This document shows positions 13,236 to 59,118 of a stretch of 64,000 nt of DNA, one piece after another. The translations under genes were made by a program, and so were the position numbers. The stretch's first letter is position 1. The number at the start of each line of letters is the position of its first letter. This DNA comes from a virus: IMG/VR virus record IMGVR_UViG_3300020036_001014, positions 2,266-66,265 of that record. The stretch is one strand, 5' to 3'. Under the pieces are notes generated by a model that was not told the DNA's origin, did not search any database, and saw only the letters and a program-made list of their open reading frames with translations.

Positions 13236-13236
13236 G

Positions 13237-19031: not shown

Positions 19032-20788
19032 TGCCAGAGCTAGGTACGCCCGAAGGTGAGTTCTACAACCCGGATCCAGTAGCCACGGATGATAGCGTTG
19101 ACATAGCTGCTGCGGTAGCTGCTGGCGCCGGTCAACCAGCACAGCAACAGGTGACTGACGCGAGCACGTCGTCAGCTGTGTATCAGCCACAGCGTCAGAA
19201 TATCAGCCAATCCGTTAACATCCAAGGCGGGTTCCCTCAGCAGGGCGTGCTTGAGCTTACGCAAGAGGACTTCTACCCCGGACCCGGCGTAGCTGAAGAT
19301 CGTTATGAGACCGGCCTTGAGCTGACCCCTCGTGCCGCACAGACACCTCTTGGGGCTATCAGCAAAGCAGCTGCACTACTGCAACGCAGGCAGCAGGATC
19401 TGGACAAGGCCGTTCAGGACTTTGACATCAACTCCAAGATGGGCAAAGCCGCTGATCCATATCAGCAGAACTTTGTCAAGGTGGCCCGTGGTAAGATGGA
19501 CAACTTCGTAGCAGGGGTTGCCGATGCTTACTACAAGGGAGACAAGAAGGCGGCTATGCGAGCCATTGCAACCAACCCGGAACTACGTACCAAGTGGCGT
19601 CAGCTGTCATCCGAACTCGAAGCCCTTGGCCAGCACAGCCAGTTCATTGGACTGCGTGCCGCTGAGTACATCAAGAACGCCAAGGACAACAAGATCCAGT
19701 TCGACCCTGAGACGCTGAAGATGGCGGAGGAATTGTACTCTGGCTTGAATCAATTCAGCGCAGAGGACGGAGCTGGAGGTGATGTACTGAAACAAACCCG
19801 ACTGAACCGTGCGTTCGAGCAGCGCATGTCAATGGAGGAGTTCTACAACAACGACGTCCTTAAGGGGCTTGAACAGTCGCAGCAAGAGCTGTCGAAGGTT
19901 GGCATCACCAAGAGAGGCAACACTTGGTTCATGACCAAGGAGGGCAAGAAGAACTTCGATGGGGTCATTGATGCAATGGCTCCGCGCATGGCGGATGTGT
20001 CTGGCATCACGGTCGAAGAGGCTAAGGATTATCTTACAAAGCGTCTGCCCGTATCCATCACTGAGGATGTTCATGCTCAGGGAATTGAGATGGGTCGTGG
20101 AAGTCAGGCCAATACAGAGAAGACGTCCTTGTCTGGTGGGGTAGGAAGGTCTATCGCCACAGATGACTGGAAGTCTCAGACCAATAGCGCATATCAGAAA
20201 CTGCGCAAGGAGAATCTGCAAGCCATGTCTTCCGGGAATAAGTTCCCTGATGAGAAGAATGATCAGATGCACATCATGACCCGACAGATCGCTGCCAATG
20301 AAGCGAATGGAAGCATACAGCGAGTCGATCCAAGTGTGATCGTTGGCGGTCAGGCGAAGCCTGTTGGTGCCCGCAGATACGGAAACTCTTACATCACCGG
20401 AGAGAGCTTCGAGCGTGCATACGATAAGAACAAGCAACCTATTCCCGGACAGTGGTACGTAGTCGGTCGCGAGGTTGGCCCGGAGATGACGCAGGAGCTT
20501 ATGAGGGCGGAGCAATCGTCAGGTCCTGACGGCGTAGAAGCCCTGCTTAGTACCGATAAGTTCAAGTCTGCGCCTATCGTATACCGCAGGGTCGGCGATG
20601 TTCTTCCCGCCCTGAATGAGTACTACAAGAAGCAGGTCCCAAGCGGAGGCACATTCATTGATGTACTGGAGGGTGCGGTAGGTGGATCGCCTGCCCCATC
20701 AGCGCCAGCCAAGCCACCCGCACCATCTTCCCAAACGCCAGCTCCAGTGCGTAAACGCTGGAACCAGGTAACTCAATCACTAGAGTAA
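19031..20788 (+). CDS. hypothetical virion protein (585 aa)
   Basis: ATG ORF coupled (TAATG) to its neighbours; Ala/Pro-rich C-terminus. Confidence 0.45.
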   Translation: MPELGTPEGEFYNPDPVATDDSVDIAAAVAAGAGQPAQQQVTDASTSSAVYQPQRQNISQSVNIQGGFPQQGVLELTQEDFYPGPGVAEDRYETGLELTPRAAQTPLGAISKAAALLQRRQQDLDKAVQDFDINSKMGKAADPYQQNFVKVARGKMDNFVAGVADAYYKGDKKAAMRAIATNPELRTKWRQLSSELEALGQHSQFIGLRAAEYIKNAKDNKIQFDPETLKMAEELYSGLNQFSAEDGAGGDVLKQTRLNRAFEQRMSMEEFYNNDVLKGLEQSQQELSKVGITKRGNTWFMTKEGKKNFDGVIDAMAPRMADVSGITVEEAKDYLTKRLPVSITEDVHAQGIEMGRGSQANTEKTSLSGGVGRSIATDDWKSQTNSAYQKLRKENLQAMSSGNKFPDEKNDQMHIMTRQIAANEANGSIQRVDPSVIVGGQAKPVGARRYGNSYITGESFERAYDKNKQPIPGQWYVVGREVGPEMTQELMRAEQSSGPDGVEALLSTDKFKSAPIVYRRVGDVLPALNEYYKKQVPSGGTFIDVLEGAVGGSPAPSAPAKPPAPSSQTPAPVRKRWNQVTQSLE

Positions 20789-26700: not shown

Positions 26701-28293
26701 GGAGAGGGTAACCTAGAGCAAGTGGTCGCTGTGATAAGGGATTCCGTTCAGCAGTCGATCAATGCGGGGCTCACCCCGCTCCCAAGCAATGGGGCTGGAG
26801 AGAAGCTGTTCGCAGCGGCCATGTCAGCGGCTTCTATGCGGGCGCTGCTCCGACCCCTTCGCGTAATCCCAGATCTCCTATCTTCCTCAATAGACATGGC
26901 CGGGAGGACAGGGTCCTTGTCGATATACCCCAAGGCGGTCACTCAGCTCAATGGTCTAAAGGATGACGTGAAGAGGTTGATGGATGACACCAACAGCAAT
27001 CATGCGGACAGGCTATCCATCTCTAGGCACATAGAAATAGGCCGTGACGAGATAGTTGAGCAGGGCAAGCTCGCGAAGGCAAGGGAATACATGTCATCCC
27101 TAGCTGAGAAGATCATGGCCGCTCCTGTATGGATGACAATGTTCGAGTCATCGTTCATGGACGCCGCTGGACAGAAGTTCGACATGGAGAAGTACAAGTC
27201 CAGCGCCATCTACCGAGCAACTAACAAGGAAGCCGTAAATATAGCTGCTGCTCAGGCAGACTTCGTGTGGTCGAGGTACACTGGCACAGGGACGATCGTT
27301 GGACAGAAGAGAAAGAACAACGCCCTATTCGCTGATGTTGACTCAAAGACAAAAACAGGAAGATCGTTGGCGTGGATGACCGGCTATTCCGAGCGTCAAA
27401 GACAAGCCCTTATTGACTCGTTCCGATTCGCAAGAGAAACCATATCGTCTGGATCTGGGGCCGGGAAACTAAAGGGATCCGGAACCTTCTTGGCGACAGC
27501 GACAGGAACACTGATCAGCGGCCTTGCCTACGCTATGGGTATGCAGATGGCGCATCTAGCTTGGATGGCGGCTGCCGGTGACGACGAGGAGAAGAAGAAG
27601 GCCGCTGAGAATATGGAGAAGATGAAGAGCCCGGAGTACGCAGGAGGAGAGGCGCTGGCTTCGATGGCTTCTTTGGCTGGTACGAAATACGGGTCTGTTG
27701 GTAGGTACTCCATAAGAGTGATGGGGTCCCTGTATTACGCGTGGCTTGACTCACAAGAGACCCCGACTGATCCAGAAGCCAAGCGAGAGTTCAATAGCAG
27801 AAAGGCTTGGGCTAAGGAGATGGTAAGAAACTTTACCTACTCCGCACCCATTGAGACATCTGGCAAAGGGGGGTCCGGTAAGGCGGTAGTTCACTCAATG
27901 GCAGACGCCATCCCCGTTGTCGGATCGCTGTCAGCTCTGATAGAGCAGGAGCTGGAAGCGGTTAAGTCCTCCAAGAAGCTTGGAAAGGAGGCCGAAAGCG
28001 TAGAGGAGGTGGCCATCTTGGCTGGTCAGATGTCCCTCGCCCTGTTCAACACCGTAGCATTCCTGTATGGGATCCAGTTCTCGTCTGCTGCGCTGGATAA
28101 GAAGGCTGCCGGGATCATGAAGGATCAAGAGCTAGGCAAAGCACCGACAACGGCAGCTGGATTTAAGGCCAGAGCCATGAGCCGGTTCGACAGAATGGCT
28201 GAAGATGACGCACAAATGGAGTCGGACAGGGCCTTTGAGGACAAAGGATTGATCGACAAACTGCTCCAAGGTGATCCAAATGATGAGGAATAA
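20788..28293 (+). CDS. giant virion protein (2501 aa) with zincin-like HEXXH motif and hydrophobic segments
   Basis: Uninterrupted 7.5-kb ORF. HEIGH with a Glu about 21 residues downstream (gluzincin-like pattern) near residue 1050. Several predicted TM-like stretches around residues 330-420 and near the C-terminus. Long Ala/Glu/Lys-rich coiled-coil-type regions. Resembles tape-measure or ejected cargo proteins. Confidence 0.55.
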   Translation: MTDPQNPPAQDIEIEAPDGAIIAFPSTMSEQDIGAAMSKLYPSKPQQPPAKQQPVTPQATAAPVSQATELDPFGDVIAKPSLVAKQEPMVPTTKMTEGMPFVSQRQNLMELERKEELSAEMARQNMFANSHFAGMNEEQLNKAKQGIEAEKMAFDKIGQSIVQRTGSLKESAAALEATRKQLEQQIQENPALQPELSAQYDAAVEAHNKEARTVQALIPIAEDYASKLGLDEMAATMQDYEIKKGQGSWGGAIANKFTGSVGQMMAAGADLTMSLANSLDAVTGFTGMTDAQRGILKEELIGKDASGIRDIPTDLMRIESTTKEYIQEKEKGLLGGAVLGLAGSALLMMTPAMSGIFLQSYDGMKQEMSGDEWAGVPESEKAALAAAGGTIAASLERLGFSNLAKSTPVARTILASAMPKMLPSMSAGQINRLLSAETDSWIRNAIVKTGSGFLAEAETGAAQELADIGMKEMYNEAKGRDLFQTPESFVDAFGQVVRSGIQEGIGGSIMSAPFAYSAARKAGAVGKQQTERQYKFMEKLFTDPDYVDTFKAASEALVKAGEVTQAEVDRAVDDLQVASKLMQKMPEDMPADKRRQAFDLLLEKERLSKKEKAMVEGKVQDIDNELRKLAGIETKTPTTDKTSTNTATIKQDDGSVSKDGGHRFIVDGRISLPVKGDGSQDAIRETTAWADEVTSLNDGTIILTDPDNGPVQKLVVGRGDETSFWLEDAKTGEVMWKSGDNIGLLKSRVGNGDILSTPTAATANPAAKPTEEELNTDTKGDAERDELIRMRNDRGVFFDPMDDLPDQVVRTMNRVDNGVPTDPVSLNEASNWLYGKRKQIASMATDPNRMMTRNQIDGLLAEIDDAISTIETYKYEQREKGSTDASENYTGEKGEHQAAAIDSANAVRTPNEGTARINPEGDLTDDQLNALAEDPSLAATKAATSGGVDVNDSAAINELATRLQGLNKAGADYAAIIGKVAKAATTLRSIAPGVNIQVHETADTIPVGDASSGNRGVLTITGRDANGNVEGTIHINLDQATENTIAHEIGHVALRQAFGADPKLFTQFKERVKKAVKPSDFKAVEAMMGKDYSSAEAPEEFLADLTQMVSDRIDSGDPLTAKEVTVIDKVVAIINDFLKALGIDPILVDPRDARATLEFFRDLGAAANAGVAVNTELAEGVGGTGTVYSKADSNVVRLLKGSEFLNAAPAQRKQMLIDARAQDASERAAQEAKVVAQAKAAGAKEERVRSKEDLSNMKEQYKTFIDSYDAATKKSMAELEEEFIARNAKDVDLARAAIDNLKAQLQESKEDLKRVAKDGFNLGRGIGSVEGEVRGIGEGLKQAAAAQKKIREDVAAYLSLIKQKGDISVAQSKALINAAMRIKIGDPASFTKFENYVDKVMDDAAYAARIEQVRDLQAKATKRKHSLMSGIVKEFTSIDPENIPSSLMADYVSALKNLAKKVPSYSDMKGLVIQISNARPIPTAGKFDSATSFSELNQAITSIASNQLNSVEDFMSMLRDMRSVAKRASELNSLDPSDPNYLSDTQYNGLVDGLALTSRKLSDEYIKEVEPLKKALIGNIRSITVPYSSTSSADADPSENLLQDAATLSDKQLMSLDPIQLQDLSELMAQAVADRYVDVSRLFPIVTAAKVYSDAENMANNLRKVKMDQVKLGELLARTDVSFWSSVSGMGARVANVFDRGIVAPWIKADAGRIRLMRDTGSKVVDLKEKYKLGPKLTDSIKANAMRKQVPNYVMDKIGAVVRYLEEYELGTRVDRSDEFGQYGTRDMFEPSTLEKLDKGGAMHTAGADQTKKHWEKAWLSFPKTNGKVDPKDVYESVTKNDGRYLSKEEGAFFNELMEWKAKNITPKQRYANAIRGIPFNELQFHMPRVKIGPASTSDAEALATPVTNKNLGLRSGTGYSRSENQPLGLFETNIESLIHNNAESTGRDFYFNSALKEVSLALKEAGKNVAGEGNLEQVVAVIRDSVQQSINAGLTPLPSNGAGEKLFAAAMSAASMRALLRPLRVIPDLLSSSIDMAGRTGSLSIYPKAVTQLNGLKDDVKRLMDDTNSNHADRLSISRHIEIGRDEIVEQGKLAKAREYMSSLAEKIMAAPVWMTMFESSFMDAAGQKFDMEKYKSSAIYRATNKEAVNIAAAQADFVWSRYTGTGTIVGQKRKNNALFADVDSKTKTGRSLAWMTGYSERQRQALIDSFRFARETISSGSGAGKLKGSGTFLATATGTLISGLAYAMGMQMAHLAWMAAAGDDEEKKKAAENMEKMKSPEYAGGEALASMASLAGTKYGSVGRYSIRVMGSLYYAWLDSQETPTDPEAKREFNSRKAWAKEMVRNFTYSAPIETSGKGGSGKAVVHSMADAIPVVGSLSALIEQELEAVKSSKKLGKEAESVEEVAILAGQMSLALFNTVAFLYGIQFSSAALDKKAAGIMKDQELGKAPTTAAGFKARAMSRFDRMAEDDAQMESDRAFEDKGLIDKLLQGDPNDEE

Positions 28294-35085: not shown

Positions 35086-35345
35086 TTCTTTGTCAGTGCT
35101 GCTATGTACTCTCTGATATCTCTGGACTCCTTGGAGGACAAGCCGTACCGGGCTTCGATCAATGGCAGTCCAGCCACTAGGGCCTCAGCCATGATGGTAT
35201 CATCAACGGAGTTGATCACATCAGTGATGTTAATGTCCTGAAGATCCGATACCGAATCCTCGATGCTGTTTACTGCTGACTCAAGATCCCTAATGGAACC
35301 CTTTAGATCACGCATGAAGTCATGCACCTTGTCTACCTTGCTCAT
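35082..35345 (-). CDS. hypothetical protein (87 aa)
   Basis: ATG ORF with ATGA-type overlaps at both ends. Confidence 0.35.
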   Translation of the reverse strand: MSKVDKVHDFMRDLKGSIRDLESAVNSIEDSVSDLQDINITDVINSVDDTIMAEALVAGLPLIEARYGLSSKESRDIREYIAALTKK

Positions 35346-36532
35346 GTTATTGGTTTCAGTGTTGCTCGGTTCATGTCAATGTCACATTCCTCTACCAATG
35401 CCTTCAGTCCCGGTGTGTTCATGATCCTTTGGATGGGTGATACGGTGATACTTACGCCTTCCGTCGTGTCAAGGATCGGTGGTAATTCTTCACCAGCGTA
35501 GGCGTTAACGAAGTCATCTACAACGTCCACAACTGTGATGGTATCGAACAGCTCGTACCCCTGCTCCTTGAGCATATCGTATGGTACTAACCAATCCCCA
35601 ATGTCGTCCCCGTCAGGAGCACCGATAGCCTCAAGGATATCACACACCTCCATGCTGCGGCACAGTGGCTCAACCATCAGGGACTGTGACAACCACCCCT
35701 CCCTGATCTGTCCGTTAGGCAGCTCACGGTCAGAGTACATCCCAGCATCGGGGAACATGACCACATCCCTTCCTACGAGGCACATGAACTTGCTGGCAGA
35801 CACTCCATGACTACCACCTGTGGCCAGCCAGATCTTATCTGGATACAGACAGGCACAGATAAGGGCTGTTTTCTCCCCCTCTACGACACAAACTGTATCG
35901 GTTGGTCTGGTCTTAAGCAAGTGCTCCCCGAAGAGAACCTGAGCGCAGCCAATGTCCTCCATTGACTTACCCGTCAGGATGCTGTGTAGCCATGTGGCCC
36001 TGAGATCCTTCCTTCTCTTCCCGTTGTCGTCATACTGGATCACCTTCCCACTTCTCTCAAGCCCATCATCCCCGATCTGGTAGTATACCATCGCTCCGTG
36101 ATACGCTGGGAAGTTCTTACCGAACGGGTAGATACCAGTACGGTACATTGACAGTACCTGCATGGCTACCATTGGGTCTGGTACGACGCGCATGAACCAG
36201 TCAATGAACTTGCAGTGCTCGACAAGGGACGGATCCCGTGTCATGTCCACTGCCTTCTTCGGTGCCCGCCAGTCCGTCTTACGTGGCGGAGGTGGGGGGA
36301 CCTTGGTTATCTCTGGCCTGTCTGGTTTGTTGCCGTCCATCATCCATTGGGTTGGGGTATACGAATACTGACAGCTGTTGATCTTTTCACATACCCCTAC
36401 CTGAATAGGTAGTTGTTGTCCGGTCAGCCTGTCGATGAACCTCCGATACTCCCTGTGTCCGCAGTTCGGACAGATCTCCTTTCTTGATCGGGATCTGTCG
36501 AAGACGAAGCGGGCGTTCCGTTTGGCAAGCAT
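35342..36532 (-). CDS. DNA primase (zinc ribbon + TOPRIM)
   Basis: N-terminal CPNCGHREY...C..NSC zinc ribbon; VVEGEKTALICA (TOPRIM Glu) and VVMFPDAG (DxD) motifs. Confidence 0.6.
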   Translation of the reverse strand: MLAKRNARFVFDRSRSRKEICPNCGHREYRRFIDRLTGQQLPIQVGVCEKINSCQYSYTPTQWMMDGNKPDRPEITKVPPPPPRKTDWRAPKKAVDMTRDPSLVEHCKFIDWFMRVVPDPMVAMQVLSMYRTGIYPFGKNFPAYHGAMVYYQIGDDGLERSGKVIQYDDNGKRRKDLRATWLHSILTGKSMEDIGCAQVLFGEHLLKTRPTDTVCVVEGEKTALICACLYPDKIWLATGGSHGVSASKFMCLVGRDVVMFPDAGMYSDRELPNGQIREGWLSQSLMVEPLCRSMEVCDILEAIGAPDGDDIGDWLVPYDMLKEQGYELFDTITVVDVVDDFVNAYAGEELPPILDTTEGVSITVSPIQRIMNTPGLKALVEECDIDMNRATLKPIT

Positions 36533-36978: not shown

Positions 36979-37971
36979 TTAGTATTTCTTGCCATGGCGT
37001 GTGCCACGAGTTAGGTTATACTTCAGCTTCAGGTCGATGTGTCGCCACAGGTCGATGTTGTGCTTATTAGCCAACCAGAAAACAGACAGCAGCGCTGCGT
37101 CCAGTCCGGGCAGATTATATCCGCCGGAGTTTCCCGAACAGATGAACGAGCATGTGGATAGCAAGGCCTCCCCAACATTGTCCTTGTCGGACTTCTTGGA
37201 CAGGTCGTAGTTTTTGAATGTGTGATCCAGATACCCCATCAGGTCAGCTATCCGGATCACGATGTCCGCCAGCTCGTACTCGAAGTACGAAAACAGGTCT
37301 CCGTAGTTCTTCTTGATGCCTTTGATGGCCGATGGAGATACGCCCCATTTGTCGGCCACTTCGACAAGCCGCATCGTATTGAGGTCCGCTAGCACGGCTG
37401 CTCGATCATCCCAGTTGAAGACCTTCTGCACATTACGAAGGCCGTGCCGAAGAGCGTGCTCGTTGTTTTCCGCCTGCGTAACCCATTCAAGATTCCACGC
37501 AATGTCATTCAGCTTATTGCCGTCAATGTGGTTGATGACAGAGGCGCCAGCTGGCTTGTCAAGGAAGGCCGAGGCTACGAGCCGAGCCACCTTGTACGTC
37601 TTTCCGCGAAGGGATACCGTTCTGTATCCAGTTCCACCAATGCCCGGACGAAGTACACGGCCCTTCTTAGTGTGGCCCCCACTGCCATTGTCAACCCACA
37701 TGTCCTTGCTTCGCACCTCGCCAAGCTCGCTCACTTCGTAGTCCTCGTGCTCAACGCACTGGACCCACTTGGCCTCATCGCGAGACATCGGTATGCCGAT
37801 AGGCTGGAGTGGCGTAGTGGCCATAATTTTCCCACCCCTATGCGCCTCCAGTGCCTCTCCGCACTCGCTCACGATGAGCATCAGCAGCTCGCCGGTGTTG
37901 CGCGGCCCATTCCACCACCCCATAGCCTTCGCTTGAGAGTGGGCTCGTTCGATCAGTTCGTTGATGTTCAT
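36979..37971 (-). CDS. MazG-like NTP pyrophosphohydrolase with in-frame HNH endonuclease insertion
   Basis: N-terminal ELIERAH...ELLMLIVSECGEALEAHRGG and C-terminal ELADIVIRIADLMG...KLKYNLTRGTRHGKKY are MazG-like. About 200 aa between them carry NUMOD4/HNH_3-like motifs (YEVSELGEVRS, GY..VSL, NHIDGNKLNDIAWNLEWVTQAENNEHA) plus an HTH segment. Confidence 0.55.
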   Translation of the reverse strand: MNINELIERAHSQAKAMGWWNGPRNTGELLMLIVSECGEALEAHRGGKIMATTPLQPIGIPMSRDEAKWVQCVEHEDYEVSELGEVRSKDMWVDNGSGGHTKKGRVLRPGIGGTGYRTVSLRGKTYKVARLVASAFLDKPAGASVINHIDGNKLNDIAWNLEWVTQAENNEHALRHGLRNVQKVFNWDDRAAVLADLNTMRLVEVADKWGVSPSAIKGIKKNYGDLFSYFEYELADIVIRIADLMGYLDHTFKNYDLSKKSDKDNVGEALLSTCSFICSGNSGGYNLPGLDAALLSVFWLANKHNIDLWRHIDLKLKYNLTRGTRHGKKY

Positions 37972-37972
37972 G

Positions 37973-39268
37973 TTAGTCTTGGTGTATTGTTGGTGTGAAT
38001 GGTTTAGCTGCCTCGGAGATCCGTTGGGTAGGGCCGTTGAGAAACAACGTGTCGTTGAAAAATCTCCCCTTCCTCGACTTAACGCTCCTGAATGTCATCG
38101 GGATCTCATTGGGATCGTTATCATCCCCCTTCTCCACAATGACCACCCAATGCGCATCGTGCCCTAGCTGCCCCGAATGCTTCAGGCTGTTGAGTCCGGC
38201 ACTGTTACCCCCGAAGGACGCCCGGTTCAATACCGATAGCGCAACAGTGGCAACGCCAGTGGCCTTGGTGACAGCAGTAATGGTTTCACTGGCCTGAGTG
38301 GTAGTATCCGTCTTGCCTACGATGTTCTTGTTCTTGCTACTCACCCTCTGCACGTAGTCAAGGAAGATCACCTCACATCCATGCCTGCGGATCAGGTCAT
38401 TGTAGTACCCGTGTAGTTCCTCTGCGCTTACCGTAGCTGGGTCGATGACGTGGATCCTGTCGTACACCTCCTTGTTCTGATCCATGGTGTAGAAGATCTG
38501 CTCCCTCTCTGCTGGTGATAGCAGGTTGTCCTCGATCCTTTCGGCATCAATACCAGCCTCCATTGCAGCAGCTCGGAAGGTCAGCTCATCAGCGGTCATC
38601 TCAATACTGATAACCCCTACATGGGTGTCTTGCTTGGCCACCGATAGAACCATGTTGATCATGGCGCTCGTCTTGCCGGAACCAGAGTCCCCTGCTACGA
38701 TCCCGTAGCTGCCCTTGCGGATCTTCCATACGTTGTCCAGTCTACCAAACCCCGGAGCCCATGTCTTCTCTGGCCCCTCCCTGCCCATGATGCGCTTCAT
38801 GGTATCAGTAAGAGTCTCAGCTTTCTTGGCAGACACGTCATGGTGGGTCAGGACAAACTCATTGATCTTGGTCATGGCCCCTGACATACCGTTCTTCAGG
38901 GCCTCTGCCGTACCCAGATACTCCATCAGTTCGGACAGCTTCTTCCGTGACTGAAGGATACCTAATCCTTTGATCAAGAAGTCAAGGTCAGCTGGCTCTT
39001 CCTGCTGGTCGATCTCTTGTACCAGCTGATCCGTTTCACCTTGGCTCTCGCCCCAGATATCACCTACCTCAATGGCCAAGGCTTCGGGAGTTACGGACAC
39101 ACCGGCGAAGTGCATCTTACGGAACGCTCTCCACACAGCCATTGTATCCTCGTTGCCGAAGTGGTGGGAGTTCACCGTCTGGATCATCCTTCGGGCTAGG
39201 TCCTTGTTGAAGACCCCTTTTAGTAGCGCTACTTCATGGACGCGGGTATTGATCTTACCGTCACTCAT
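37973..39268 (-). CDS. replicative DNA helicase (DnaB-like)
   Basis: 431 aa; Walker A GDSGSGKTS, Walker B VIFLDYVQ, N-terminal helical domain; ATGA coupling to the upstream gene. Confidence 0.8.
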   Translation of the reverse strand: MSDGKINTRVHEVALLKGVFNKDLARRMIQTVNSHHFGNEDTMAVWRAFRKMHFAGVSVTPEALAIEVGDIWGESQGETDQLVQEIDQQEEPADLDFLIKGLGILQSRKKLSELMEYLGTAEALKNGMSGAMTKINEFVLTHHDVSAKKAETLTDTMKRIMGREGPEKTWAPGFGRLDNVWKIRKGSYGIVAGDSGSGKTSAMINMVLSVAKQDTHVGVISIEMTADELTFRAAAMEAGIDAERIEDNLLSPAEREQIFYTMDQNKEVYDRIHVIDPATVSAEELHGYYNDLIRRHGCEVIFLDYVQRVSSKNKNIVGKTDTTTQASETITAVTKATGVATVALSVLNRASFGGNSAGLNSLKHSGQLGHDAHWVVIVEKGDDNDPNEIPMTFRSVKSRKGRFFNDTLFLNGPTQRISEAAKPFTPTIHQD

Positions 39269-50957: not shown

Positions 50958-51956
50958 TTATTCTACCAGTTGTTTATGGTTCGTCCACTCAAACGTGTTG
51001 ATGTCAGAGGTGAAGTGTCCACACCCCTCGCAGTACAGGTATCCTTGGTCCGAAGCTACTTCATGTGACTCACACCTTGGGCATACCATGTCATCCATGT
51101 CCACTGGATCCTCACCCCAGCTCTCGCCGTAACAGTAGGAGTAGTTGCCGTGGTCCTTGTCTTCTCCTGCGAAGTAGATCCACGCAGTTACTTCTTCTCC
51201 ATCAGACAGTGTTACTTGCGTCTCACGGCGTTGGTACAAGGTCGGGTGTCCTTCCAGCTTATCCAGCTCCAGCAGGGTATCGGTTGACACACGATACACC
51301 TCTACCTCTACCTGTGAACCACCACCGCCTTCGATCAGGAACGGTAGACCATGTACGCACAGTCTGTGCTTCTCATTGGTCCACCCCCAGCCCATGAAGT
51401 CAGCCTTGTCGAGCATCCAGTTGTTACCGTGGCCTGTTTTCAGTGTACCATACACGGCCACCATCTTACCAGTTGGGATACAGTAAGCGTTGGAATACCA
51501 CGCTCCTTCATGCTCAACCCACCCCTCACCAGTACGGATGATGCTCTTGCGCTTGGCATTGACAAGAACATACCGCTGTGCGAACCGTGACAGAACCGCC
51601 TCACGAGATTCATGGTTGACGCTACGTAGCATATCAGCCAAGTGTTGGGTATCAGTACGGTCGTCGTCGATAAACCCCTCTACCGTACCGTTCTGGAACA
51701 AGTAGAACCCGTTGTCCACCGGGAATGGGTGGCAGTTCTGCAATGTCTTGCCACCTACCGTGGCCCACCTGAAGTGGTGTATCGCTGGACCGGGCTCAAG
51801 TGCTAGCTTGATAGCCTTCTCCATATCCAGTGTCTTCTCAACCTTGCCTGTTCGTAGGCAAAGTCTACCGTATCCGTCCGAGTTAATGAGCGCAGCTCGC
51901 TTAACTATGTCCGAGTTAAGCACGGACCCGCTGCTGTTGTCAATGAGTAGGCACAT
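50958..51956 (-). CDS. fused class-II glutamine amidotransferase (Ntn) + gamma-glutamyl cyclotransferase-like protein
   Basis: Start set at the internal Met (MCLLIDNSSG) so that Cys2 is N-terminal, since the track ORF overlaps the upstream gene. IHHFRWATVGGKTLQNCHPF matches the GATase-II signature (H.RWAT.G...N.HPF). C-terminal half MVAVYGTLKTGHGNN...VEVEVYRV...GHPTLYQR matches the AIG2/GGCT fold pattern. Terminal CPRC...CEGCGH zinc ribbon. Confidence 0.55.
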   Translation of the reverse strand: MCLLIDNSSGSVLNSDIVKRAALINSDGYGRLCLRTGKVEKTLDMEKAIKLALEPGPAIHHFRWATVGGKTLQNCHPFPVDNGFYLFQNGTVEGFIDDDRTDTQHLADMLRSVNHESREAVLSRFAQRYVLVNAKRKSIIRTGEGWVEHEGAWYSNAYCIPTGKMVAVYGTLKTGHGNNWMLDKADFMGWGWTNEKHRLCVHGLPFLIEGGGGSQVEVEVYRVSTDTLLELDKLEGHPTLYQRRETQVTLSDGEEVTAWIYFAGEDKDHGNYSYCYGESWGEDPVDMDDMVCPRCESHEVASDQGYLYCEGCGHFTSDINTFEWTNHKQLVE

Positions 51957-53931
51957 CTGTTGTTTGTTGTTGTTGTTGTTCGTAAGTACTGATCTCTTCT
52001 GGTGTGGCTGGTCGCAGGTCAATAATGTCCTCACCGGACATATCTGTTCCGTTGCCACGCAGCCACGTTACTCCAATGGCTCCAGTTCGTATCACACCCC
52101 TTGAATCTGCTCGGCACAGGTGTCCATGTGCAGGACCCCGGCCATTGTACATCAGAACCTGACCCACGGTGAATGGATTACCATCGTTACGTGTTGCTCG
52201 CTCGATCTCCTGCGGTGTTGCTCTGCGGGCAGACGACCGTTGGTATACACCGCCACACGGCGCTATGGATATCGTACCGTCACTGAACGTTCTCTCCACA
52301 AGCTGGGTTGTTCCGATAAACTGCGAGTCGCACCCTGTGTTATCGCCAGTGATCACGATCCAGTCACCCGTTCTGAGTATGTCTGCGGCAGCGATCTCTT
52401 CTGGAGTAGCACGGCGTGCTGATTCAGCTGGGTAGAACCAACCATGACCAATATGTGCCCAGTCCGTGCTATGACTTCCAGACCAGTCGATACCGAGCAA
52501 TTGATCTACCACGATGCAGCGACCCAGTTCACCTGTCCAACCCATTCTATCTGGTCCGGTTACTACAACCCAGTCTCCAATAGCCGGTAGATACCCGGTC
52601 TCTACTGGCTCTGGTTGTGCTGGAATAGCGGCCAGCTCTTCTTCCGTTGGAAGGCGTAGTCTGTTGGCATATACCCATGCGTCTGTCCTGTAATCCATCC
52701 GATGCACATTTATTTCCGCTCCGGTGCCATTTGCTGCGTTGACCGTAACCAATGATATGGGATCGTTCGCATACCCGTCAATCCACATCAGCACCTGTCC
52801 AGTGGTCCAGCTTGGGGGTGGCGGTGGAGGTGGGACGTAGTTCCGAATGAACTCACTGATCCCGTCGTGTTTGACACCACGGTAATACCACCCGGCGAAC
52901 GCACTGTACAGGCGGATGACCTCCTGGACTTTCTTGATCCCAGCCTTCGGATCTTCGGGGTTGGTGTAAACATCCAGCAGCATCTTCCGCACATCACCGT
53001 CACGACCCAGCTGCTTGCGCATCCATGTCCATGTCAAGGGCTTTTCTTTAGCCGCAAGCAGGAAGTGTGCTATCAGGTCGAACCTCCACATCAGGGACTT
53101 GGCCGTCTTGACCGCACTGGGAACTCGAAGCTCGATCCGGTGTGGCTCAAAGAAGAATGCTTGGTACTTCTCTTGTCTACCCTTCTCCTTGTCGGTCATG
53201 GCCTTGCAATACCCACCCGTCAAGCGTTTGGGATACAGAGCAAGCAGTAAGGGGAACAGCGGGCGGATCCGTTCGGATAGCTCGATAGGGGTAAACCGTC
53301 TGTCACTGATGGAGATATGGCCACCGCAACTGGTTGAGCAGTCGGCGTCGAGAACCTTGGTCAGCTTACGTACATGCTGAACCAGAAGCTCACGCTCGTT
53401 GATGTTGAAGGCTGGGGATACAAGCTCGAAACCCGTATCATCATCCAGCGAACCGTCACGTTCACATACCCATCCAGAGGGAAGTTCAAGCCCATCCTCG
53501 ATCAGATCACGGATACTGCGATCCTCTTTCTCCACCTCGAACCCGATGCGATACGGGTGTTCGTTGGTAACTGCATGAAGGTCACGCTCTTGGCTGTGGT
53601 AGTCGTTCAGGCCCCCTTCCTCTGGCTCGGAGTTGTACGTCTCGCTGCGTTCGTGGTAGTGGGCGTGGTCGTCACGGCACGACTCGCACCACCACTCATC
53701 AACATCTTCGATGTGGGTGAGGTTGAAGCCTGCGTTGTCATCGTGGCAAATGTCTTCGTTACAGCTACCGCACGAAGAGACTTCGTTCTGGTGGCAGATG
53801 CCGTCTATCATTGTACGGGTGGCCTCGTCTTCTGGTATCCAAGCCTCGCTTTGTTCCGAGTACAGATACCCATCAAGCTCTGGTGCAGATCGAGAACTGC
53901 ACCGTATTTCTATGGTGTGTGAATGCGGCAT
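51940..53931 (-). CDS. amidoligase-like (glutamine-synthetase-fold) protein with C-terminal repeat domain
   Basis: 663 aa; N-terminal Cys/His cluster; RIGFEVEKE...DGSLDDDTGFELVSPAF...GGHISIS resembles Amidoligase_2/GCS2-like ligases as recalled; C-terminal region has ~4 copies of an RRATP(E/Q)EI...TGDW(I/V)V(I/V)TG repeat and a PPPPPPP tract. Confidence 0.4.
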   Translation of the reverse strand: MPHSHTIEIRCSSRSAPELDGYLYSEQSEAWIPEDEATRTMIDGICHQNEVSSCGSCNEDICHDDNAGFNLTHIEDVDEWWCESCRDDHAHYHERSETYNSEPEEGGLNDYHSQERDLHAVTNEHPYRIGFEVEKEDRSIRDLIEDGLELPSGWVCERDGSLDDDTGFELVSPAFNINERELLVQHVRKLTKVLDADCSTSCGGHISISDRRFTPIELSERIRPLFPLLLALYPKRLTGGYCKAMTDKEKGRQEKYQAFFFEPHRIELRVPSAVKTAKSLMWRFDLIAHFLLAAKEKPLTWTWMRKQLGRDGDVRKMLLDVYTNPEDPKAGIKKVQEVIRLYSAFAGWYYRGVKHDGISEFIRNYVPPPPPPPSWTTGQVLMWIDGYANDPISLVTVNAANGTGAEINVHRMDYRTDAWVYANRLRLPTEEELAAIPAQPEPVETGYLPAIGDWVVVTGPDRMGWTGELGRCIVVDQLLGIDWSGSHSTDWAHIGHGWFYPAESARRATPEEIAAADILRTGDWIVITGDNTGCDSQFIGTTQLVERTFSDGTISIAPCGGVYQRSSARRATPQEIERATRNDGNPFTVGQVLMYNGRGPAHGHLCRADSRGVIRTGAIGVTWLRGNGTDMSGEDIIDLRPATPEEISTYEQQQQQTTDVPTH

Positions 53932-54678: not shown

Positions 54679-54999
54679 CTACTGCTTGCCTTGTGCAAGA
54701 TCTATCGACTTAGGGTTAAAGCGAACCATTGCATTGTACGCAGCTGTTTCGTCCGTAAACCCGTAATCTCCTTGATGCGCGTCTACATAGTTGTCTATCA
54801 GCTTCTTGGCTTCGATCAACTCTGCCAACAGGTCGTCCCGTTGTTGCTTGAGGTCGGGGGCTTGGGCGATCAGCTCATCATCACCAGATCGCAGTGATGT
54901 AACCTGAGCTATGTGTATTCCACGTCGATCAAATACGCCGACGCCAACAACGTGGGCCACAACCTTGCTGTGCCACGGTCCCGGTGTGTGCTTGCTCAT
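54679..54999 (-). CDS. hypothetical protein (~106 aa)
   Basis: Internal ATG (MSKHTPGPW) sits 3 nt after a GTTAAC-type motif; the track ORF extends to 55134. Confidence 0.4.
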   Translation of the reverse strand: MSKHTPGPWHSKVVAHVVGVGVFDRRGIHIAQVTSLRSGDDELIAQAPDLKQQRDDLLAELIEAKKLIDNYVDAHQGDYGFTDETAAYNAMVRFNPKSIDLAQGKQ

Positions 55000-55002
55000 G
55001 TC

Positions 55003-55022
55003 CTTAACTATTTGATGGTTAG
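55003..55022 (-). promoter_or_regulatory. GTTAAC-type motif (CTTAACTATTTGATGGTTAG)
   Basis: 3 nt upstream of the ATG of 54679..54999. Confidence 0.4.
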
Positions 55023-55341
55023 CGTCGCATCCAGTCACGACGGCGTTCTTTTCTTGACACCCTGCCGCAGTCCCGCTCAATGGCAGTACCGGACATTTGA
55101 TCCGTGACCCGTGTATCCCGATCACCCGGACCACTGGCCATGATACGGATAGGAGAGCTATCGGTCATTACTTCTGACCCACAGTTGACGCATGTCCCCA
55201 CCCATACTTGTCGGAAGGTTGACCCGAACGGTATACCAGCTATCTGCTGTTTCCATTCAAGGGAATGTCCACGCCAAGATGCAGAAGCATTGGCGTCATC
55301 GCGGAGCTTATTCAGCCCTACTTTGTATGTGATCACGTCGC

Positions 55342-55980
55342 TCATTTGATCGGATACTTGGAGTTCAGCGTATCTGCGATTCGCTTGCCGTATTTGCGGC
55401 TGATGTACTTGGCTTGGTAAGCCCACGCAGCAGCCCCCGCAGCATCCCCCGCAGCAGCCCGCGCAGCATCCCCCGCAGCAGCCCCCGCAGCATCCCACGC
55501 AGCAGCCCCCGCAGCAGCCCCCGCAGCATCCCCCGCAGCAGCCCCCGCAGCATACCCCGCAGCAGCCCCCGCAGCAGCCCACGCAGCAGCCCCCGCAGCA
55601 TCCCCCGCAGCATACCCCGCAGCATCCCCCGCAGCATACCCCGCAGCAGCCCACGCAGCAGCCCGCGCAGCAGCAAGCTCGCTGGCGCTCGCCCGGCCAT
55701 TTGCATAACGCTCTGCGACTCGAACAGCTTCTCTGCTCCGCTCATCGGTCAACAGGTCCCATACCCTACGACCATCAGCAAGCGGGGTCTTGCGAACGAA
55801 ACGACAGGCAAGAAGCCGAAGCTCCTTGTTATCCAGTAGCTTCAATTTCTCGATCAGCCACATAGACCACTCAGGATCCTTGTTCATGCTTATCACTTTC
55901 TCCCACGTTGGGGCTTCTTTCATGGCTTCGACGGCTGGTCCGCAGGCGCCAATGCGCCGGAGGTGTTGGTATGGTTTCAT
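55342..55980 (-). CDS. protein with ~19 tandem AAGx tetrapeptide repeats (212 aa)
   Basis: N-terminal ~110-aa globular-looking region, then AWAAAGYAAGDAAGYAAGDAAGAAAW... encoded by the 12-bp tandem array; all other frames are open only because of the repeat. Confidence 0.5.
   Translation of the reverse strand: MKPYQHLRRIGACGPAVEAMKEAPTWEKVISMNKDPEWSMWLIEKLKLLDNKELRLLACRFVRKTPLADGRRVWDLLTDERSREAVRVAERYANGRASASELAAARAAAWAAAGYAAGDAAGYAAGDAAGAAAWAAAGAAAGYAAGAAAGDAAGAAAGAAAWDAAGAAAGDAARAAAGDAAGAAAWAYQAKYISRKYGKRIADTLNSKYPIK
55423..55674. repeat. tandem array of ~21 x 12-bp units (CCCCCGCAGCAG / CCCCCGCAGCAT)
   Basis: Read directly: 252 bp of near-perfect 12-mers with occasional A/C substitutions. 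Confidence 0.9.
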
Positions 55981-56654: not shown

Positions 56655-56910
56655 CGTATTCTGGTTCTTCCACTGGTTCGCTTTCAATGCGCTCCAGTTG
56701 TTGCTCAAGTTCGTCCAGTGGGCGGAAGCGGCCAACGAAAAACCCGTTCGGGTTCCGATGCGGCTCTTCTTTCACATGCAGCCCGGTCATGGATACTACC
56801 CTGCTCACGGTGTATGTGTCACCAGCCACGAGCTTGTGCGGCACGCCACTGGTCAGCCTTCCGTCGGATGCGTCCACACACACCACCTTCTGGCCTACGT
56901 AGAAGCTCAT
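56650..56910 (-). CDS. hypothetical protein (86 aa)
   Basis: ATG ORF; ATGA-coupled to the upstream micro-ORF. Confidence 0.4.
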   Translation of the reverse strand: MSFYVGQKVVCVDASDGRLTSGVPHKLVAGDTYTVSRVVSMTGLHVKEEPHRNPNGFFVGRFRPLDELEQQLERIESEPVEEPEYA

Positions 56911-57056
56911 TTCTCGTCCTTGTTATGCCCCTTCAGATCCCTTTTCAGCCCCTCCCATAGATGGGAAAAGTTGTGGTCTTGATAAGGAGCGGGTGAAACG
57001 TCCGGTTGCTCTTCGGCCAGCTGCCGTTCAACTTGTAGGTGTCCTTTGTTTGCCAT
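56907..57056 (-). CDS. micro-ORF (49 aa), not in track
   Basis: ATG ORF whose TGA overlaps the ATG of 56650..56910. Confidence 0.3.
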   Translation of the reverse strand: MANKGHLQVERQLAEEQPDVSPAPYQDHNFSHLWEGLKRDLKGHNKDEK

Positions 57057-57090
57057 GCTTTCTCGCTTTACGTTGTTACGCTCGTTCGCA

Positions 57091-57789: not shown

Positions 57790-57843
57790 GAACGAAAGAA
57801 AGGGAAGGGGCGTTTCCGCCCCCTCCCGATCTTCCTTTGGCCC

Positions 57844-58407
57844 TTAGGCCGCTTCCTTCGCTTCCAATTCCCTCAGATGCGCCTGCACCGCTTCCAGCAA
57901 CCCTTCACAAGCCTTGCGGTCCATGGATGCCACAAGGGCACCCCAGTTCTTAGCGAACTGCCGGGCGATCACTTCGCCGGTCACGGTCGGACTATCATCC
58001 ACCGTGGAAGCATGTTTATTGCCTTCAACTTTCAGCGCGGCACCCTTGTCGGAACGTTCGGCCCGCATACGGATACCGCAGCGTTCACGCATGACCACGC
58101 TGAAGGTTTGTTGGGCCATGCCGCAGCGCCAATTTCGCACCGTCACCGTCTTGCCCGCTTTTATCTCTTTAGATGCCGGGCAAAGTACCTCTTTCAAGGT
58201 ATTGAATATCGCCCGATCTTCCATGCCGGATGCGCGGAGATCTTCGCAGGCCTTCACCAGCCGATCAGATACCCGACCCACAATAGGGGCCAGACCTTCA
58301 CGGAAGGGTTCCGCGTTCGCATCTTCTTTGCCAACGAAGGCCGTGAAGCGCTCCACGATACCCTTGGCCTGTTCAATGTTCAGGCCGTCGTTCACTTGCT
58401 TTTCCAT
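57844..58407 (-). CDS. hypothetical early protein (187 aa), first gene of minus-strand operon
   Basis: ATG 5 nt after an identical CTTAACTATTTGGTAGTTAAC motif; faces the control region. Confidence 0.45.
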   Translation of the reverse strand: MEKQVNDGLNIEQAKGIVERFTAFVGKEDANAEPFREGLAPIVGRVSDRLVKACEDLRASGMEDRAIFNTLKEVLCPASKEIKAGKTVTVRNWRCGMAQQTFSVVMRERCGIRMRAERSDKGAALKVEGNKHASTVDDSPTVTGEVIARQFAKNWGALVASMDRKACEGLLEAVQAHLRELEAKEAA

Positions 58408-58433: not shown

Positions 58434-58949
58434 ACAGTTAAGGGCGTAGCTATCCCCTTACCTCGGAATTGAGGCTTTTCGTGCCGCCCCTCCGAACGAA
58501 CGGAAGATCCACCCTGGCCCTATGTTCAACGCATCCGGTCAAGGAGCGCAACAGTAGGAGCGGCAGGCAATAGAACGCGGTGGTACTTATATCCTTATTG
58601 CAGGAAGGCCACCCAGTATGTCAAAGAACATAACGGGACAAAGGAAGTAAAAGAAAATGGAACGTCAATAGCTATGTGACGAACCGTTATGCGTTCATCC
58701 GTGGGCTATTGTTCCACCCTGGTCCCGATACTGAAAGAACGTGTGTCCGTGGTGATAGGCTGAACACTGGGACGAAGTAATATCACGGAAATGGAAAAAG
58801 CAAGTGAAAGGGAAAATAAGTTATGAACAGCTATCGGAGCCCTTGCCCATAGGTATGAACGTGCGTATGCGTGCGACGCACGCGATATAGGCGATCCGTT
58901 GGGATATTCCAAGGGGGGTTACTCACCATTCGTCACATTGAAACACACC

Positions 58950-59011
58950 ATGACACAATGACAGCTACTGACACAATGACATGACAGTATGTCCACATGA
59001 CAACATGACAG
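58950..59011. repeat. iteron-like array of 7 (A)TGACA repeats
   Basis: ccATGACAcaATGACAgctacTGACAcaATGACATGACAgtatgtccacATGACAacATGACAgctaacg; longer units CAATGACAGCTACTG / ACATGACAGCTAACG are 13/15 identical; further ATGACAAG / GCTGTCAAG copies near 59190. Confidence 0.6.
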
Positions 59012-59118
59012 CTAACGCTGTTAACAAACTTAACACTGTTAAGTGAATGACCAATGATCAGCCATCCAACAAACGTTTGCTTTACGGATCTTTTGGTCCA
59101 TTGCATCCCAAGGGATCA

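What the first reader, a model, noticed from the sequence alone, without database searches (positions are those of the whole stretch)
55342..55980. Twenty-one tandem 12-bp repeats encoding an (AAGx)n low-complexity protein, a potential contingency locus
Positions 55423-55674 are an almost perfect array of CCCCCGCAGCAG/CCCCCGCAGCAT 12-mers. On the coding (minus) strand they specify AWAAAGYAAGDAAGYAAGDAAGAAAW... fused to a ~110-aa N-terminal domain. Such short-unit tandem repeats are prone to slippage, so copy number is likely to vary between isolates while staying in frame. The repeat also produces long spurious ORFs in all other frames. The function of an Ala/Gly tetrapeptide repeat protein in an early operon is unknown; it could be a flexible linker or a hypervariable decoy or anti-defence factor.
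Basis: seen in the sequence. Interest (0 to 1): 0.6.

Follow-up and report, generated by a model that had tools for sequence, protein, structure and literature searches.

The report
Hypervariable alanine-repeat hairpin protein of phages
A phage gene carries 21 in-frame 12-base repeats whose number and two exposed amino acids per repeat differ between near-identical phages; it belongs to a very large, unstudied protein family that probably uses this fast-changing helical stalk to bind a host or rival protein.

Summary
In detail: a 12-bp array of 21.2 copies (55420-55674) lies in frame inside a 212-aa gene (55342-55980, minus strand). The predicted variation is real. Sister contigs from other metagenomes carry 7, 15 and 21 units with 94-100% identical flanks. 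One 21-unit allele differs at 11 bases, all in the array, with none in 1,443 flanking bases.

The gene is not an oddity. It belongs to an uncharacterised family with 4,705 clusters at E<=1e-10. Members have a conserved all-helical N-domain, a variable [A/D]-A-A-[W/R/G] array and a conserved C-terminal helix. AlphaFold2 folds a canonical member's array into a long antiparallel helical hairpin.

Across 50 arrays, units are homogenised at synonymous sites but vary strongly at two codon bases. This points to concerted evolution plus diversifying selection. It is not a DGR: no template repeat, no reverse transcriptase among the ORFs scanned, and synonymous adenines do not vary.

Function is inferred only. 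The best guess is a rapidly evolving binding surface, possibly an Imm5-like inhibitor. No Pfam, NCBIfam, PADLOC or PDB assignment holds.

The parts
55342..55980 (-). Complete gene, 212 aa: N-domain, then a 21-unit tetrapeptide array, then a C-terminal helix.
   Evidence: ORF list. There are 514 homologues at E<=1e-3 by the word-indexed search and 17,115 / 4,705 / 375 cluster representatives at E<=1e-3 / 1e-10 / 1e-30 by the exhaustive profile search. It matches PHROG phrog_18326 (unknown function) at E=1e-13.
55666..55980 (-). Conserved all-alpha N-terminal domain (residues 1-105).
   Evidence: AlphaFold2 pLDDT is 93-97. Near-invariant residues are C13, W41, R55, R63, T65, P66, L67, D69, G70, R71, D75-D79, R81, S82, E90. 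hhalign gives 99.7% probability to a Planctomycete paralogue family.
55732..55788 (-). Most conserved motif, TPLADGRRVWDLLTDERSR (residues 65-83). TPLADGRx is an 8-residue insertion relative to the Planctomycete relatives and is modelled as a short beta-hairpin-like loop.
   Evidence: T65 and G70 are invariant. The insertion is seen in the hhalign alignment. DSSP assigns E66/E72.
55420..55674 (-). 12-bp tandem array, 21 units of GCT GCG NGG NNT, encoding [A/D/Y]-A-A-[G/W/R]. It is the hypervariable part.
   Evidence: TRF and unit table. Within the array only unit positions 7, 10 and 11 vary. All 11 differences from L001 fall here. Alleles with 7 and 15 units exist.
55342..55419 (-). Conserved C-terminal helix and tail (AYQAKYISRKYGKRIADTLNSKYPIK, then stop). 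It is predicted to pack back on the N-domain.
   Evidence: pLDDT is 89-97 for residues 180-212. Q189 is near-invariant. The tail motif Q..LLR..GNPF is shared with the Planctomycete family.
55019..55345 (-). Downstream 108-aa gene whose ATG overlaps the stop codon of the repeat gene (ATGA), so translational coupling is likely.
   Evidence: Sequence. The same gene is called in L001 (4356-4682) and L139 (5468-5794). It has no PADLOC hit.
55414..55839 (+). Spurious 141-aa ORF (SPRSIPRS...) created by the repeat in another frame. The same applies to 55365..55745 (-) and to the upstream extension of 55019..55654 (-).
   Evidence: ORF list. These frames have no homology support, whereas the AAGx frame is continuous with conserved flanks.

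Best explanation
The gene encodes a member of a very large, uncharacterised family found in phages and some bacteria.

Architecture. A conserved ~105-residue helical domain and a conserved C-terminal helix anchor the two ends of a variable array of four-residue units, [A/D/x]-A-A-[W/R/G/x]. The array folds back on itself as a long antiparallel alpha-helical hairpin (a stalk). Its length is set by the number of units. I infer that its outer surface is made of the two variable residues of each unit and that the Ala-Ala pairs pack the two helices together.

How the DNA changes. The array is an in-frame 12-bp VNTR. Slipped-strand mispairing or unequal recombination between units adds, deletes and copies units. 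That keeps synonymous sites identical (concerted evolution) and always preserves the frame. Single-base changes at the first base of the NGG codon (Trp/Arg/Gly) and in the GCN/GAN/TAT codon (Ala/Asp/Tyr) are retained.

Result and inferred function. Stalk length and surface change much faster than the rest of the genome. The most likely function is a rapidly evolving protein-binding surface used early in infection. The protein would be an immunity-like or anti-defence inhibitor, remotely of the Imm5 type, locked in an arms race with a host or competitor protein.

Status of each step.
- Shown: the architecture, family membership, allele variation and codon-position pattern.
- Predicted: the hairpin.
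- Inferred: the binding/inhibitor role and the slippage mechanism.
For: (1) Allele series in one phage lineage.
- Alleles have 21, 21 (with 11 substitutions), 15 and 7 units, all with the same GCT GCG NGG GNT codons and 94-100% identical flanks.
- Window versus L001: 11 of 252 array bases differ against 0 of 1,443 flanking bases (Fisher p=6e-10). All 11 are non-synonymous and all fall at 3 of the 12 unit positions.

(2) Other lineages. L004 and L005 are 99.9-100% identical over 12 kb apart from a 162-bp in-frame array indel. L125 and L126 differ by a 4-unit indel.

(3) Family-wide pattern (50 arrays, 564 units).
- Unit-to-unit diversity is 0.06-0.07 at Ala third positions but 0.53 and 0.50 at unit positions 7 and 11.
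- Different lineages use different Ala codons, so homogenisation is lineage-specific.

(4) Codon usage in arrays. Arg is 79% NGG against 32% in the N-domains of the same genes. Gly is 81% GGG against 18%. W, R and G therefore interconvert by single first-base changes faster than synonymous drift.

(5) Structure. AlphaFold2 of the canonical member P0119 gives pLDDT 92 and pTM 0.81. Helices 109-141 and 146-182 form a hairpin whose turn (142-145) sits at the midpoint of the array (114-174).

(6) Residue choice. W, R, Y, D, G, N and S dominate the variable positions. From general knowledge, these are the residues typical of binding hot spots.

(7) Weak but repeated immunity-like signals.
- Pfam Imm5_like hits appear in 8 of 121 members (best E=0.0017), and at E=0.023 they cover profile positions 5-120 of 129 in a Gemmataceae paralogue.
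- The Gemmataceae genome has three tandem paralogues beside an integrase, resembling a poly-immunity locus.

(8) Location. The gene sits in the small-gene block upstream of the replication genes. In other phages it lies among early and replication genes.
Against: - No functional evidence exists for any member, and no paper was found.
- The Imm5_like scores are below Pfam's cut-off (15 against 25 bits).
- No partner gene is conserved next to the family, so no target can be named.
- The array in this window is unusually Gly-rich (15 of 21 units). AlphaFold2 gives pLDDT 37-53 for residues 124-174, so in this allele the stalk may be partly disordered.
- Model coordinates could not be inspected, so which residues face outward is inferred, not measured.
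- All alleles come from short-read metagenome assemblies. Unit order could be chimeric if several alleles coexist in a sample.
- Several lineages have identical arrays despite 1.6% flank divergence (L018/L019/L021), so high turnover is not universal.
Confidence: 0.5

Rival explanations
1. Neutral junk linker. The array is a slippage-prone, functionally unconstrained spacer between two halves of a small helical protein, and its variation is a by-product of repeat instability with no selective meaning.
For: Length varies threefold (7-21 units) without loss of the gene. The middle of this window's array is modelled with low confidence. Some family members replace the array with non-repetitive helical sequence (L031, L032, L046, L047 and the Planctomycete family).
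Against: Under neutrality, synonymous and x/z positions should vary equally. Observed diversity is about 8-fold higher at positions 7 and 11 across all arrays, and in the longest arrays the contrast is zero against about 0.5. Ala-Ala is strictly kept. The array is retained in thousands of lineages. A canonical array is predicted as a confident hairpin.
Confidence: 0.2
2. Nucleic-acid-level element. The G-rich coding strand (a GGG or G5 run every 12 nt) forms G-quadruplexes or another DNA/RNA structure that regulates expression or drives instability, and the protein repeat is secondary.
For: The coding strand of the array is 55% G, with 21 runs of three or more G and one canonical G4 motif at 55506-55546. 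GGG at unit positions 8-10 is nearly universal in W/R/G-type arrays, and NGG codon bias is extreme.
Against: Conservation is at the protein level. The Ala positions use all four codons in different lineages. Arrays built on Y, N, S or M units lack the G-runs but keep the xAAz periodicity (L016, L034, L008, L038, L052). The NGG bias follows simply from Trp having the single codon TGG, combined with recent one-step changes.
Confidence: 0.1
3. Assembly artefact. The array length or unit order is produced by short-read assembly of a repeat (collapse, expansion or chimeras of co-existing alleles).
For: All sequences are metagenome contigs and reads were not available. Window and L001 have the same length but shuffled-looking units, which a chimeric path through a mixed population could produce.
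Against: The longest exact internal repeat is 35-38 nt in all three alleles examined, so any k of 39 or more resolves a clonal array. Four assemblies from different samples all give in-frame arrays with the same codons. Identical arrays are recovered independently from three metagenomes in another lineage (L018/L019/L021). Even chimerism would require real allele heterogeneity.
Confidence: 0.07
4. Targeted mutagenesis by a diversity-generating retroelement. The variable bases correspond to adenines of a template repeat (AGG AAT) copied by an error-prone reverse transcriptase.
For: In this window the variable bases are exactly N of NGG and NN of NNT. That is what A-mutagenesis of AGG-AAT would give, and AAT-type codons are typical of DGR templates (general knowledge of DGRs).
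Against: No second copy of the array or any template-like sequence exists in the 64-kb window. None of the ten large minus-strand ORFs scanned against Pfam is a reverse transcriptase, and none of the ten large ORFs scanned against PHROGs matched one. In lineages whose Ala codons are GCA, the synonymous adenines never vary (L015, L023, L041, L055, L097, L104). Copy-number change is not a DGR outcome.
Confidence: 0.03

Closest known systems
Imm5 / Imm5_like immunity proteins of polymorphic toxin systems (Pfam PF14423 / PF21805), and the solved deaminase-toxin immunity protein SsdAI (PDB 7jtu_B)
   Different: All scores are below family thresholds. No toxin gene lies nearby. Pfam Imm5_like covers only the N-domain region, and nothing I found reports a tetrapeptide array or length and sequence hypervariability for Imm5 or SsdAI. 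Here the protein is encoded by a lytic-type phage early region.
Uncharacterised Planctomycete paralogue family (alignment A3, e.g. Gemmataceae K2R98_05390)
   Same: Homologous N-domain and C-terminal 'Q..LLR.I.GNPF' helix: hhalign probability 99.7%, E=3e-26.
   Different: It lacks the TPLADGRx insertion. Its middle segment is non-repetitive. It carries an extra C-terminal domain (LHDALLEAGH...HPKGCWVLDLILGK). It is itself of unknown function.
In-frame VNTRs / contingency loci of bacterial surface and virulence proteins (general knowledge)
   Same: Short tandem DNA units change in number by slippage or recombination, which gives heritable, reversible protein size variation.
   Different: There is no frameshift on/off switching. 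The protein is intracellular and phage-encoded. Variation is also in sequence, confined to two residues per 4-aa unit, with dN far above dS within arrays.
Diversity-generating retroelement target proteins (e.g. Bordetella phage Mtd; general knowledge)
   Same: A phage protein with a conserved scaffold has variation focused on a few codon positions that yield binding-type residues.
   Different: There is no reverse transcriptase and no template repeat, and adenine specificity fails. The scaffold is a helical hairpin, not a C-type lectin or Ig fold. The diversity mechanism is repeat turnover.
PHROG phrog_18326 and cultured-phage homologues (Burkholderia phage Bcep176 gp36, Erwinia phage phiEt88, Pseudomonas phage AF)
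   Same: Same family: E=1e-13 to the PHROG. Bcep176 gp36 has the N-domain and AAG/AAW/AAR repeats and sits among early genes near a DNA methylase.
   Different: All are annotated only as hypothetical. Bcep176 gp36 lacks the TPLADGR insertion and has a different N-terminal extension.

Membership tests
Phage xAAz-repeat family (PHROG phrog_18326; alignment A1) | Conserved N-domain with the motif C-x-x-V-R-x-TPLxDGRxVWDLLTDERSRxAVxVAE | tested here: met
   phmmer E=1e-73 to 1e-16 to 120 members. The A1 profile scores 214.9 bits (E=4e-65) on the window ORF. PHROG E=1e-13.
Phage xAAz-repeat family (PHROG phrog_18326; alignment A1) | Array of 4-residue [A/D]-A-A-[W/R/G] units encoded by 12-nt tandem units, followed by an A-Q-x-x-x-[IL]-R C-terminal helix | tested here: met
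   Q189 is near-invariant.
Imm5_like (Pfam PF21805) | Score at or above the Pfam gathering threshold (25 bits) | tested here: not met
   The window protein has no hit even at E<=10. Eight of 121 relatives hit weakly, best E=0.0017. The Gemmataceae paralogue scores 15 bits.
Imm5_like (Pfam PF21805) | Genomic linkage to a polymorphic toxin (DYW-type deaminase, CdiA-CT) or a poly-immunity locus | tested here: not met
   No toxin-like neighbour in the window, and no conserved neighbour across 58 loci. Only the Gemmataceae locus shows tandem paralogues.
Imm5_like (Pfam PF21805) | Structural similarity to a solved immunity protein of that class (SsdAI) | tested here: inconclusive
Diversity-generating retroelement target | Nearby template repeat about 75-90% identical to the variable region | tested here: not met
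   Only one array in the window.
Diversity-generating retroelement target | Reverse transcriptase gene in the element | tested here: not met
   Pfam on ten large minus-strand ORFs and PHROGs on ten large ORFs gave no RT. Not every small ORF was scanned, and the genome may extend beyond the window.
Diversity-generating retroelement target | Variation restricted to template adenines, synonymous ones included | tested here: not met
   GCA Ala codons in arrays show zero variation at the A.
Contingency locus (simple-sequence phase variation) | Repeat-number change between closely related genomes | tested here: met
   7, 15 and 21 units. Other lineages.
Contingency locus (simple-sequence phase variation) | Repeat change switches expression on and off (frameshift or promoter spacing) | tested here: not met
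   The unit is 12 bp, and all alleles are in frame and full length.
Known anti-phage defence or anti-defence catalogues | Match to a PADLOC model | tested here: not met
   No hit for the window protein, P0119, P0255 or P0085.

The most novel reading that the evidence does not exclude
The family is a previously unrecognised class of phage hypervariable binding proteins. A fixed helical scaffold displays a stalk built from 12-bp cassettes. Recombination or slippage among the cassettes, plus one-step toggling of two codons (W/R/G and A/D), generates combinatorial surface diversity. This would be a repeat-based, retroelement-independent analogue of DGR variable proteins, used to keep pace with host defence or toxin proteins.
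Probability: 0.25. Interest if true: 0.85.

Novelty: new variant of a known kind. Interest (0 to 1): 0.62.

Why it matters
If the stalk is a fast-evolving binding surface, this would be one of the largest unstudied families of candidate phage counter-defence or immunity proteins. It has more than 4,700 clusters at 50% identity and occurs in phages of very different hosts, including Burkholderia, Erwinia and Pseudomonas phages that can be grown.

It would also be a simple, retroelement-free way for viruses to diversify a protein surface. The unit is tiny (4 residues, 2 of them variable) and is predicted to form a regular hairpin, so it could serve as a designable scaffold.

More practically, the array is a strain-level marker for these phages. 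It is also a place where gene callers produce false ORFs in three other frames.

Tried and rejected
- DGR hypothesis: prompted by the NGG/NNT pattern, then rejected.
- Megablast of the 4-kb neighbourhood against 50,697 phage records: no match.
- Exact-DNA scans for more alleles: metagenome contigs and IMG/VR found nothing. The protein-guided metagenome scan returned only distant relatives of 71% identity or less. Extra alleles came instead from the 90% protein cluster.
- Pfam, NCBIfam and PADLOC on the protein: nothing usable, only spurious Ala-rich FliH hits.
- Profile search of PDB sequences: one chance hit at E=0.86.
- Foldseek against BFVD: only uncharacterised proteins from uncultured phages.
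- The afdb50 library was unavailable.
- Conserved-neighbour analysis over 58 loci: no partner gene.
- Literature searches for the motif strings, DUF7666, Imm5_like, tetrapeptide or alanine-rich phage repeats, and in-frame phage VNTRs: nothing relevant.
- Second family copy in the window: none.

Full report
**1. The observation**

Tandem Repeats Finder finds one outstanding array in the window: 55420-55674, period 12, 21.2 copies, 88% matches, no indels, score 384. The pattern GCNGCNNGGNNT x2 occurs 20 times there, against 0.73 expected in shuffles.

The array lies inside the minus-strand ORF 55342-55980 (212 aa). In coding register every unit reads GCT GCG NGG NNT, giving Ala-Ala-[Gly/Trp/Arg]-[Ala/Asp/Tyr]. 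Three long ORFs in other frames are by-products of the repeat: 55019-55654 (-), 55365-55745 (-) and 55414-55839 (+). Only the AAGx frame is continuous with an N-terminal domain and a C-terminal tail that have homologues.

**2. Setting**

- The window looks like a novel tailed phage. It has a plus-strand structural block with a portal at 4331-6667 and ORFs of 1,529 and 2,501 aa that match no PHROG.
- It also has a minus-strand block with a DNA methyltransferase, DnaB-type helicase, HNH endonuclease, DUF6371 primase-like protein, AAA ATPase, DUF932, and an amidoligase-like protein plus a GATase/GGACT protein.
- The repeat gene sits among small ORFs at the upstream end of that minus-strand block. 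Its stop codon overlaps the start of a 108-aa gene (ATGA at 55342-55345).
- Megablast finds no related record among 50,697 phage genomes.

**3. A large family**

- The N-terminal 122 residues retrieve 514 proteins. An exhaustive profile search finds 17,115, 4,705 and 375 cluster representatives at E<=1e-3, 1e-10 and 1e-30.
- Members share three parts:
  - an all-alpha N-domain with the near-invariant stretch TPLxDGRxVWDLLTDERSRxAVxVAE;
  - an array of four-residue units [A/D/x]-A-A-[W/R/G/x] of very variable length;
  - a helix beginning A-Q-x-x-x-[IL]-R, often followed by NPF.
- Lineage-specific unit flavours exist (AAY, AAN, AAS, AAM, AAC). A few members have a non-repetitive middle segment.
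- The family is PHROG phrog_18326, of unknown function. The window protein reaches no Pfam, NCBIfam or PADLOC threshold.
- Forty-seven IMG/VR contigs carry it, as do MAGs of Dehalococcoidia, Lentisphaerae, Victivallales, Opitutales, Gammaproteobacteria, Nanopelagicales, Gemmataceae and an archaeon.
- Cultured phages also carry it, always as a 'hypothetical protein': Burkholderia Bcep176 gp36, Erwinia phiEt88, Pseudomonas AF and a Curvibacter phage.
- No neighbouring gene is conserved across 58 loci. Contexts are early or replication modules.

**4. Predicted structure**

- For the window protein, AlphaFold2 is confident for residues 1-115 (pLDDT 93-97) and 180-212 (89-97). It is not confident for the Gly-rich middle of the array (37-53).
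- For the canonical W/R/D-type member P0119 the model is confident throughout (pLDDT 92, pTM 0.81). Helices 109-141 and 146-182 form an antiparallel hairpin, and the turn (142-145) is at the exact midpoint of the array (114-174).
- The array therefore reads as a stalk whose two ends are fixed on the conserved domain and whose length follows the unit number.
- I infer that the Ala-Ala pairs form the helix-helix seam and that the two variable residues face outward.

**5. Variation between genomes**

The same gene was found on three further contigs from sibling JGI metagenomes.

| Source | Units | Relation to the window |
|---|---|---|
| Window | 21 | reference |
| L001 (sample 3300020046) | 21 | identical over 1,695 bases except 11 substitutions |
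| L002 (sample 3300020047) | 15 | flanks 94-98% identical |
| L139 (sample 3300020050) | 7 | flanks 94-100% identical |

- All 11 substitutions in L001 lie in the array, all at unit positions 7, 10 or 11, and all are non-synonymous. The count is 11 of 252 array bases against 0 of 1,443 flanking bases (Fisher p=6e-10).
- All four alleles use the same codons and are in frame.
- In other lineages, L004 and L005 are 99.9-100% identical over 12 kb but differ by a 162-bp in-frame deletion in the array. L125 and L126 differ by four units. P0045 and L026 are 197 and 249 aa with the same N-terminus.
- The longest exact repeat inside the window's array is 37 nt, so ordinary assembler k-mers resolve a clonal array.
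- Identical arrays were recovered from three metagenomes in another lineage (L018/L019/L021).
- An artefact is therefore unlikely. Chimeric unit order from mixed populations cannot be excluded without reads.

**6. How the arrays evolve**

- Across 50 arrays (564 units), the third positions of the Ala codons are almost invariant within an array (mean unit-to-unit diversity 0.06-0.07, and zero in most arrays of 15 or more units). Unit position 7 (first base of NGG) has diversity 0.53, and position 11 (second base of GCN/GAN) has 0.50.
- Different lineages have fixed different Ala codon pairs (GCT GCG, GCA GCC, GCC GCA, GCC GCG and others). Homogenisation is therefore recent and lineage-specific, which is the signature of concerted evolution by unit duplication, deletion and conversion.
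- In arrays, Arg is 79% AGG/CGG and Gly is 81% GGG. In the N-domains of the same genes the figures are 32% and 18%. Trp (TGG), Arg and Gly thus interconvert by single first-base changes faster than synonymous drift.
- Neutral slippage alone would not give a large excess of non-synonymous over synonymous diversity. Diversifying or balancing selection on the two variable residues, or a site-specific mutational bias, is required.
- A DGR was considered, because NGG/NNT is what adenine mutagenesis of AGG-AAT would give. It fails: the window has no template copy and no reverse transcriptase among the ORFs scanned, and synonymous adenines in GCA-type arrays never vary.

**7. Relatives and possible function**

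- A large Planctomycete paralogue family shares the N-domain and the C-terminal helix (hhalign 99.7%, E=3e-26). It lacks both the repeat and the eight-residue TPLADGRx insertion, and it is also uncharacterised. One Gemmataceae MAG has three tandem paralogues next to an integrase.
- Sub-threshold Imm5_like (PF21805) matches occur in 8 of 121 members. They cover nearly the whole profile in one Gemmataceae paralogue (E=0.023, 15 bits against a 25-bit cut-off).
- Imm5 was proposed as immunity to DYW-type deaminase and CdiA-CT toxins (PMC3482391).
- These are leads, not membership.
- Taken together, four observations favour a rapidly co-evolving protein-binding role early in infection: the early-gene position, the conserved scaffold with a hypervariable surface, the residue set (W, R, Y, D, G, N, S), and the immunity-like hints. 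I favour an inhibitor of a host defence or toxin protein, at roughly even odds.
- Rivals are a neutral linker (0.2), a G-rich nucleic-acid element (0.1; 21 G-runs), an assembly artefact (0.07) and a DGR (0.03).

**8. Verdict**

The locus is one allele of a very large, unstudied family with an unusual and quantifiable evolutionary signature. Its kind is known (in-frame VNTR, hypervariable viral protein). The combination of a 4-residue cassette, a helical-hairpin stalk and variation limited to two codon positions is not described in anything I could find. Function remains inferred.

Noticed in passing
window 58945-59042: Three adjacent short tandem arrays (ACACAATG x4.4, ACATGACA x4, TAACACTGT x3.3) lie in the region where strand bias and gene orientation switch (about 58.4-60.9 kb). 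Promoter-like sites on both strands are nearby. This may be an operator or origin region of the phage.
   Followed up: no
window 50958-53931 (-): Two adjacent genes lie just downstream of the small-gene block: a 663-aa protein with a weak Amidoligase_2 match, and a 366-aa GATase-like plus GGACT (gamma-glutamyl cyclotransferase) protein with a zinc ribbon. The pair is conserved in L002 and L139. It may be a peptide or metabolite-modifying module.
   Followed up: no
window 36979-37971 (-): A NUMOD4 + HNH homing-endonuclease-like gene is wedged between the DnaB-type helicase (37973-39268) and the DUF6371/zinc-ribbon primase-like gene (35342-36532).
   Followed up: no
window 13192-17781 and 20788-28293 (+): Very large structural-block ORFs of 1,529 and 2,501 aa match no PHROG. 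Eight of the ten large ORFs tested had no PHROG hit, so the phage is far from anything catalogued. A perfect-ish 30-bp x2 repeat sits at 16802-16862 inside the 1,529-aa ORF.
   Followed up: no
window 56710-57081 versus L001 2590-2991: Between two blocks that are 99% identical, the window and contig L001 carry unrelated segments of about 370 and 400 bp. This is a small cassette replacement among the early small ORFs.
   Followed up: no
window 57802-57827 (-): A strong terminator-like hairpin (11-bp stem, 9 G-C pairs, T-run) lies right after the 187-aa gene 57844-58407. The repeat gene may therefore belong to a separate transcription unit that starts downstream of it.
   Followed up: no
window 55420-55674, coding (-) strand: The array's coding strand is 55% G, with a run of three or more G in each of the 21 units (mostly G5) and one canonical G-quadruplex motif at 55506-55546. 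This could contribute to replication slippage or affect translation.
   Followed up: partly
L004 5023-6603; L005; L009 6001-6878: Some phages carry two family genes in tandem. In L004/L005 only the second copy shows the array indel.
   Followed up: partly
L058 4917-7156 (Gemmataceae MAG JAIEMG010000045.1): Three tandem paralogues carry the related N-domain fused to a different C-terminal domain (LADALEDAGC...HCRGPG.HVRGCW). They lie directly downstream of a tyrosine-recombinase-like gene (3993-4904). The layout resembles a mobile poly-immunity locus.
   Followed up: partly
L031, L037, P0085: A few family members carry an extra N-terminal DUF7666 (PF24703) domain. Others carry an 'L..L.K..AC...Y..L...LG...NGLDDAIWAL' type N-terminal extension (L026, L036, L042, Bcep176 gp36).
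   Followed up: no
window 54679-55134 (-) and L030: The ORF after the coupled downstream gene contains an 'MSKHTPGPW' start motif. The same HTPGPW motif precedes a family domain in L030. It may be a recurrent small-phage-protein module.
   Followed up: no
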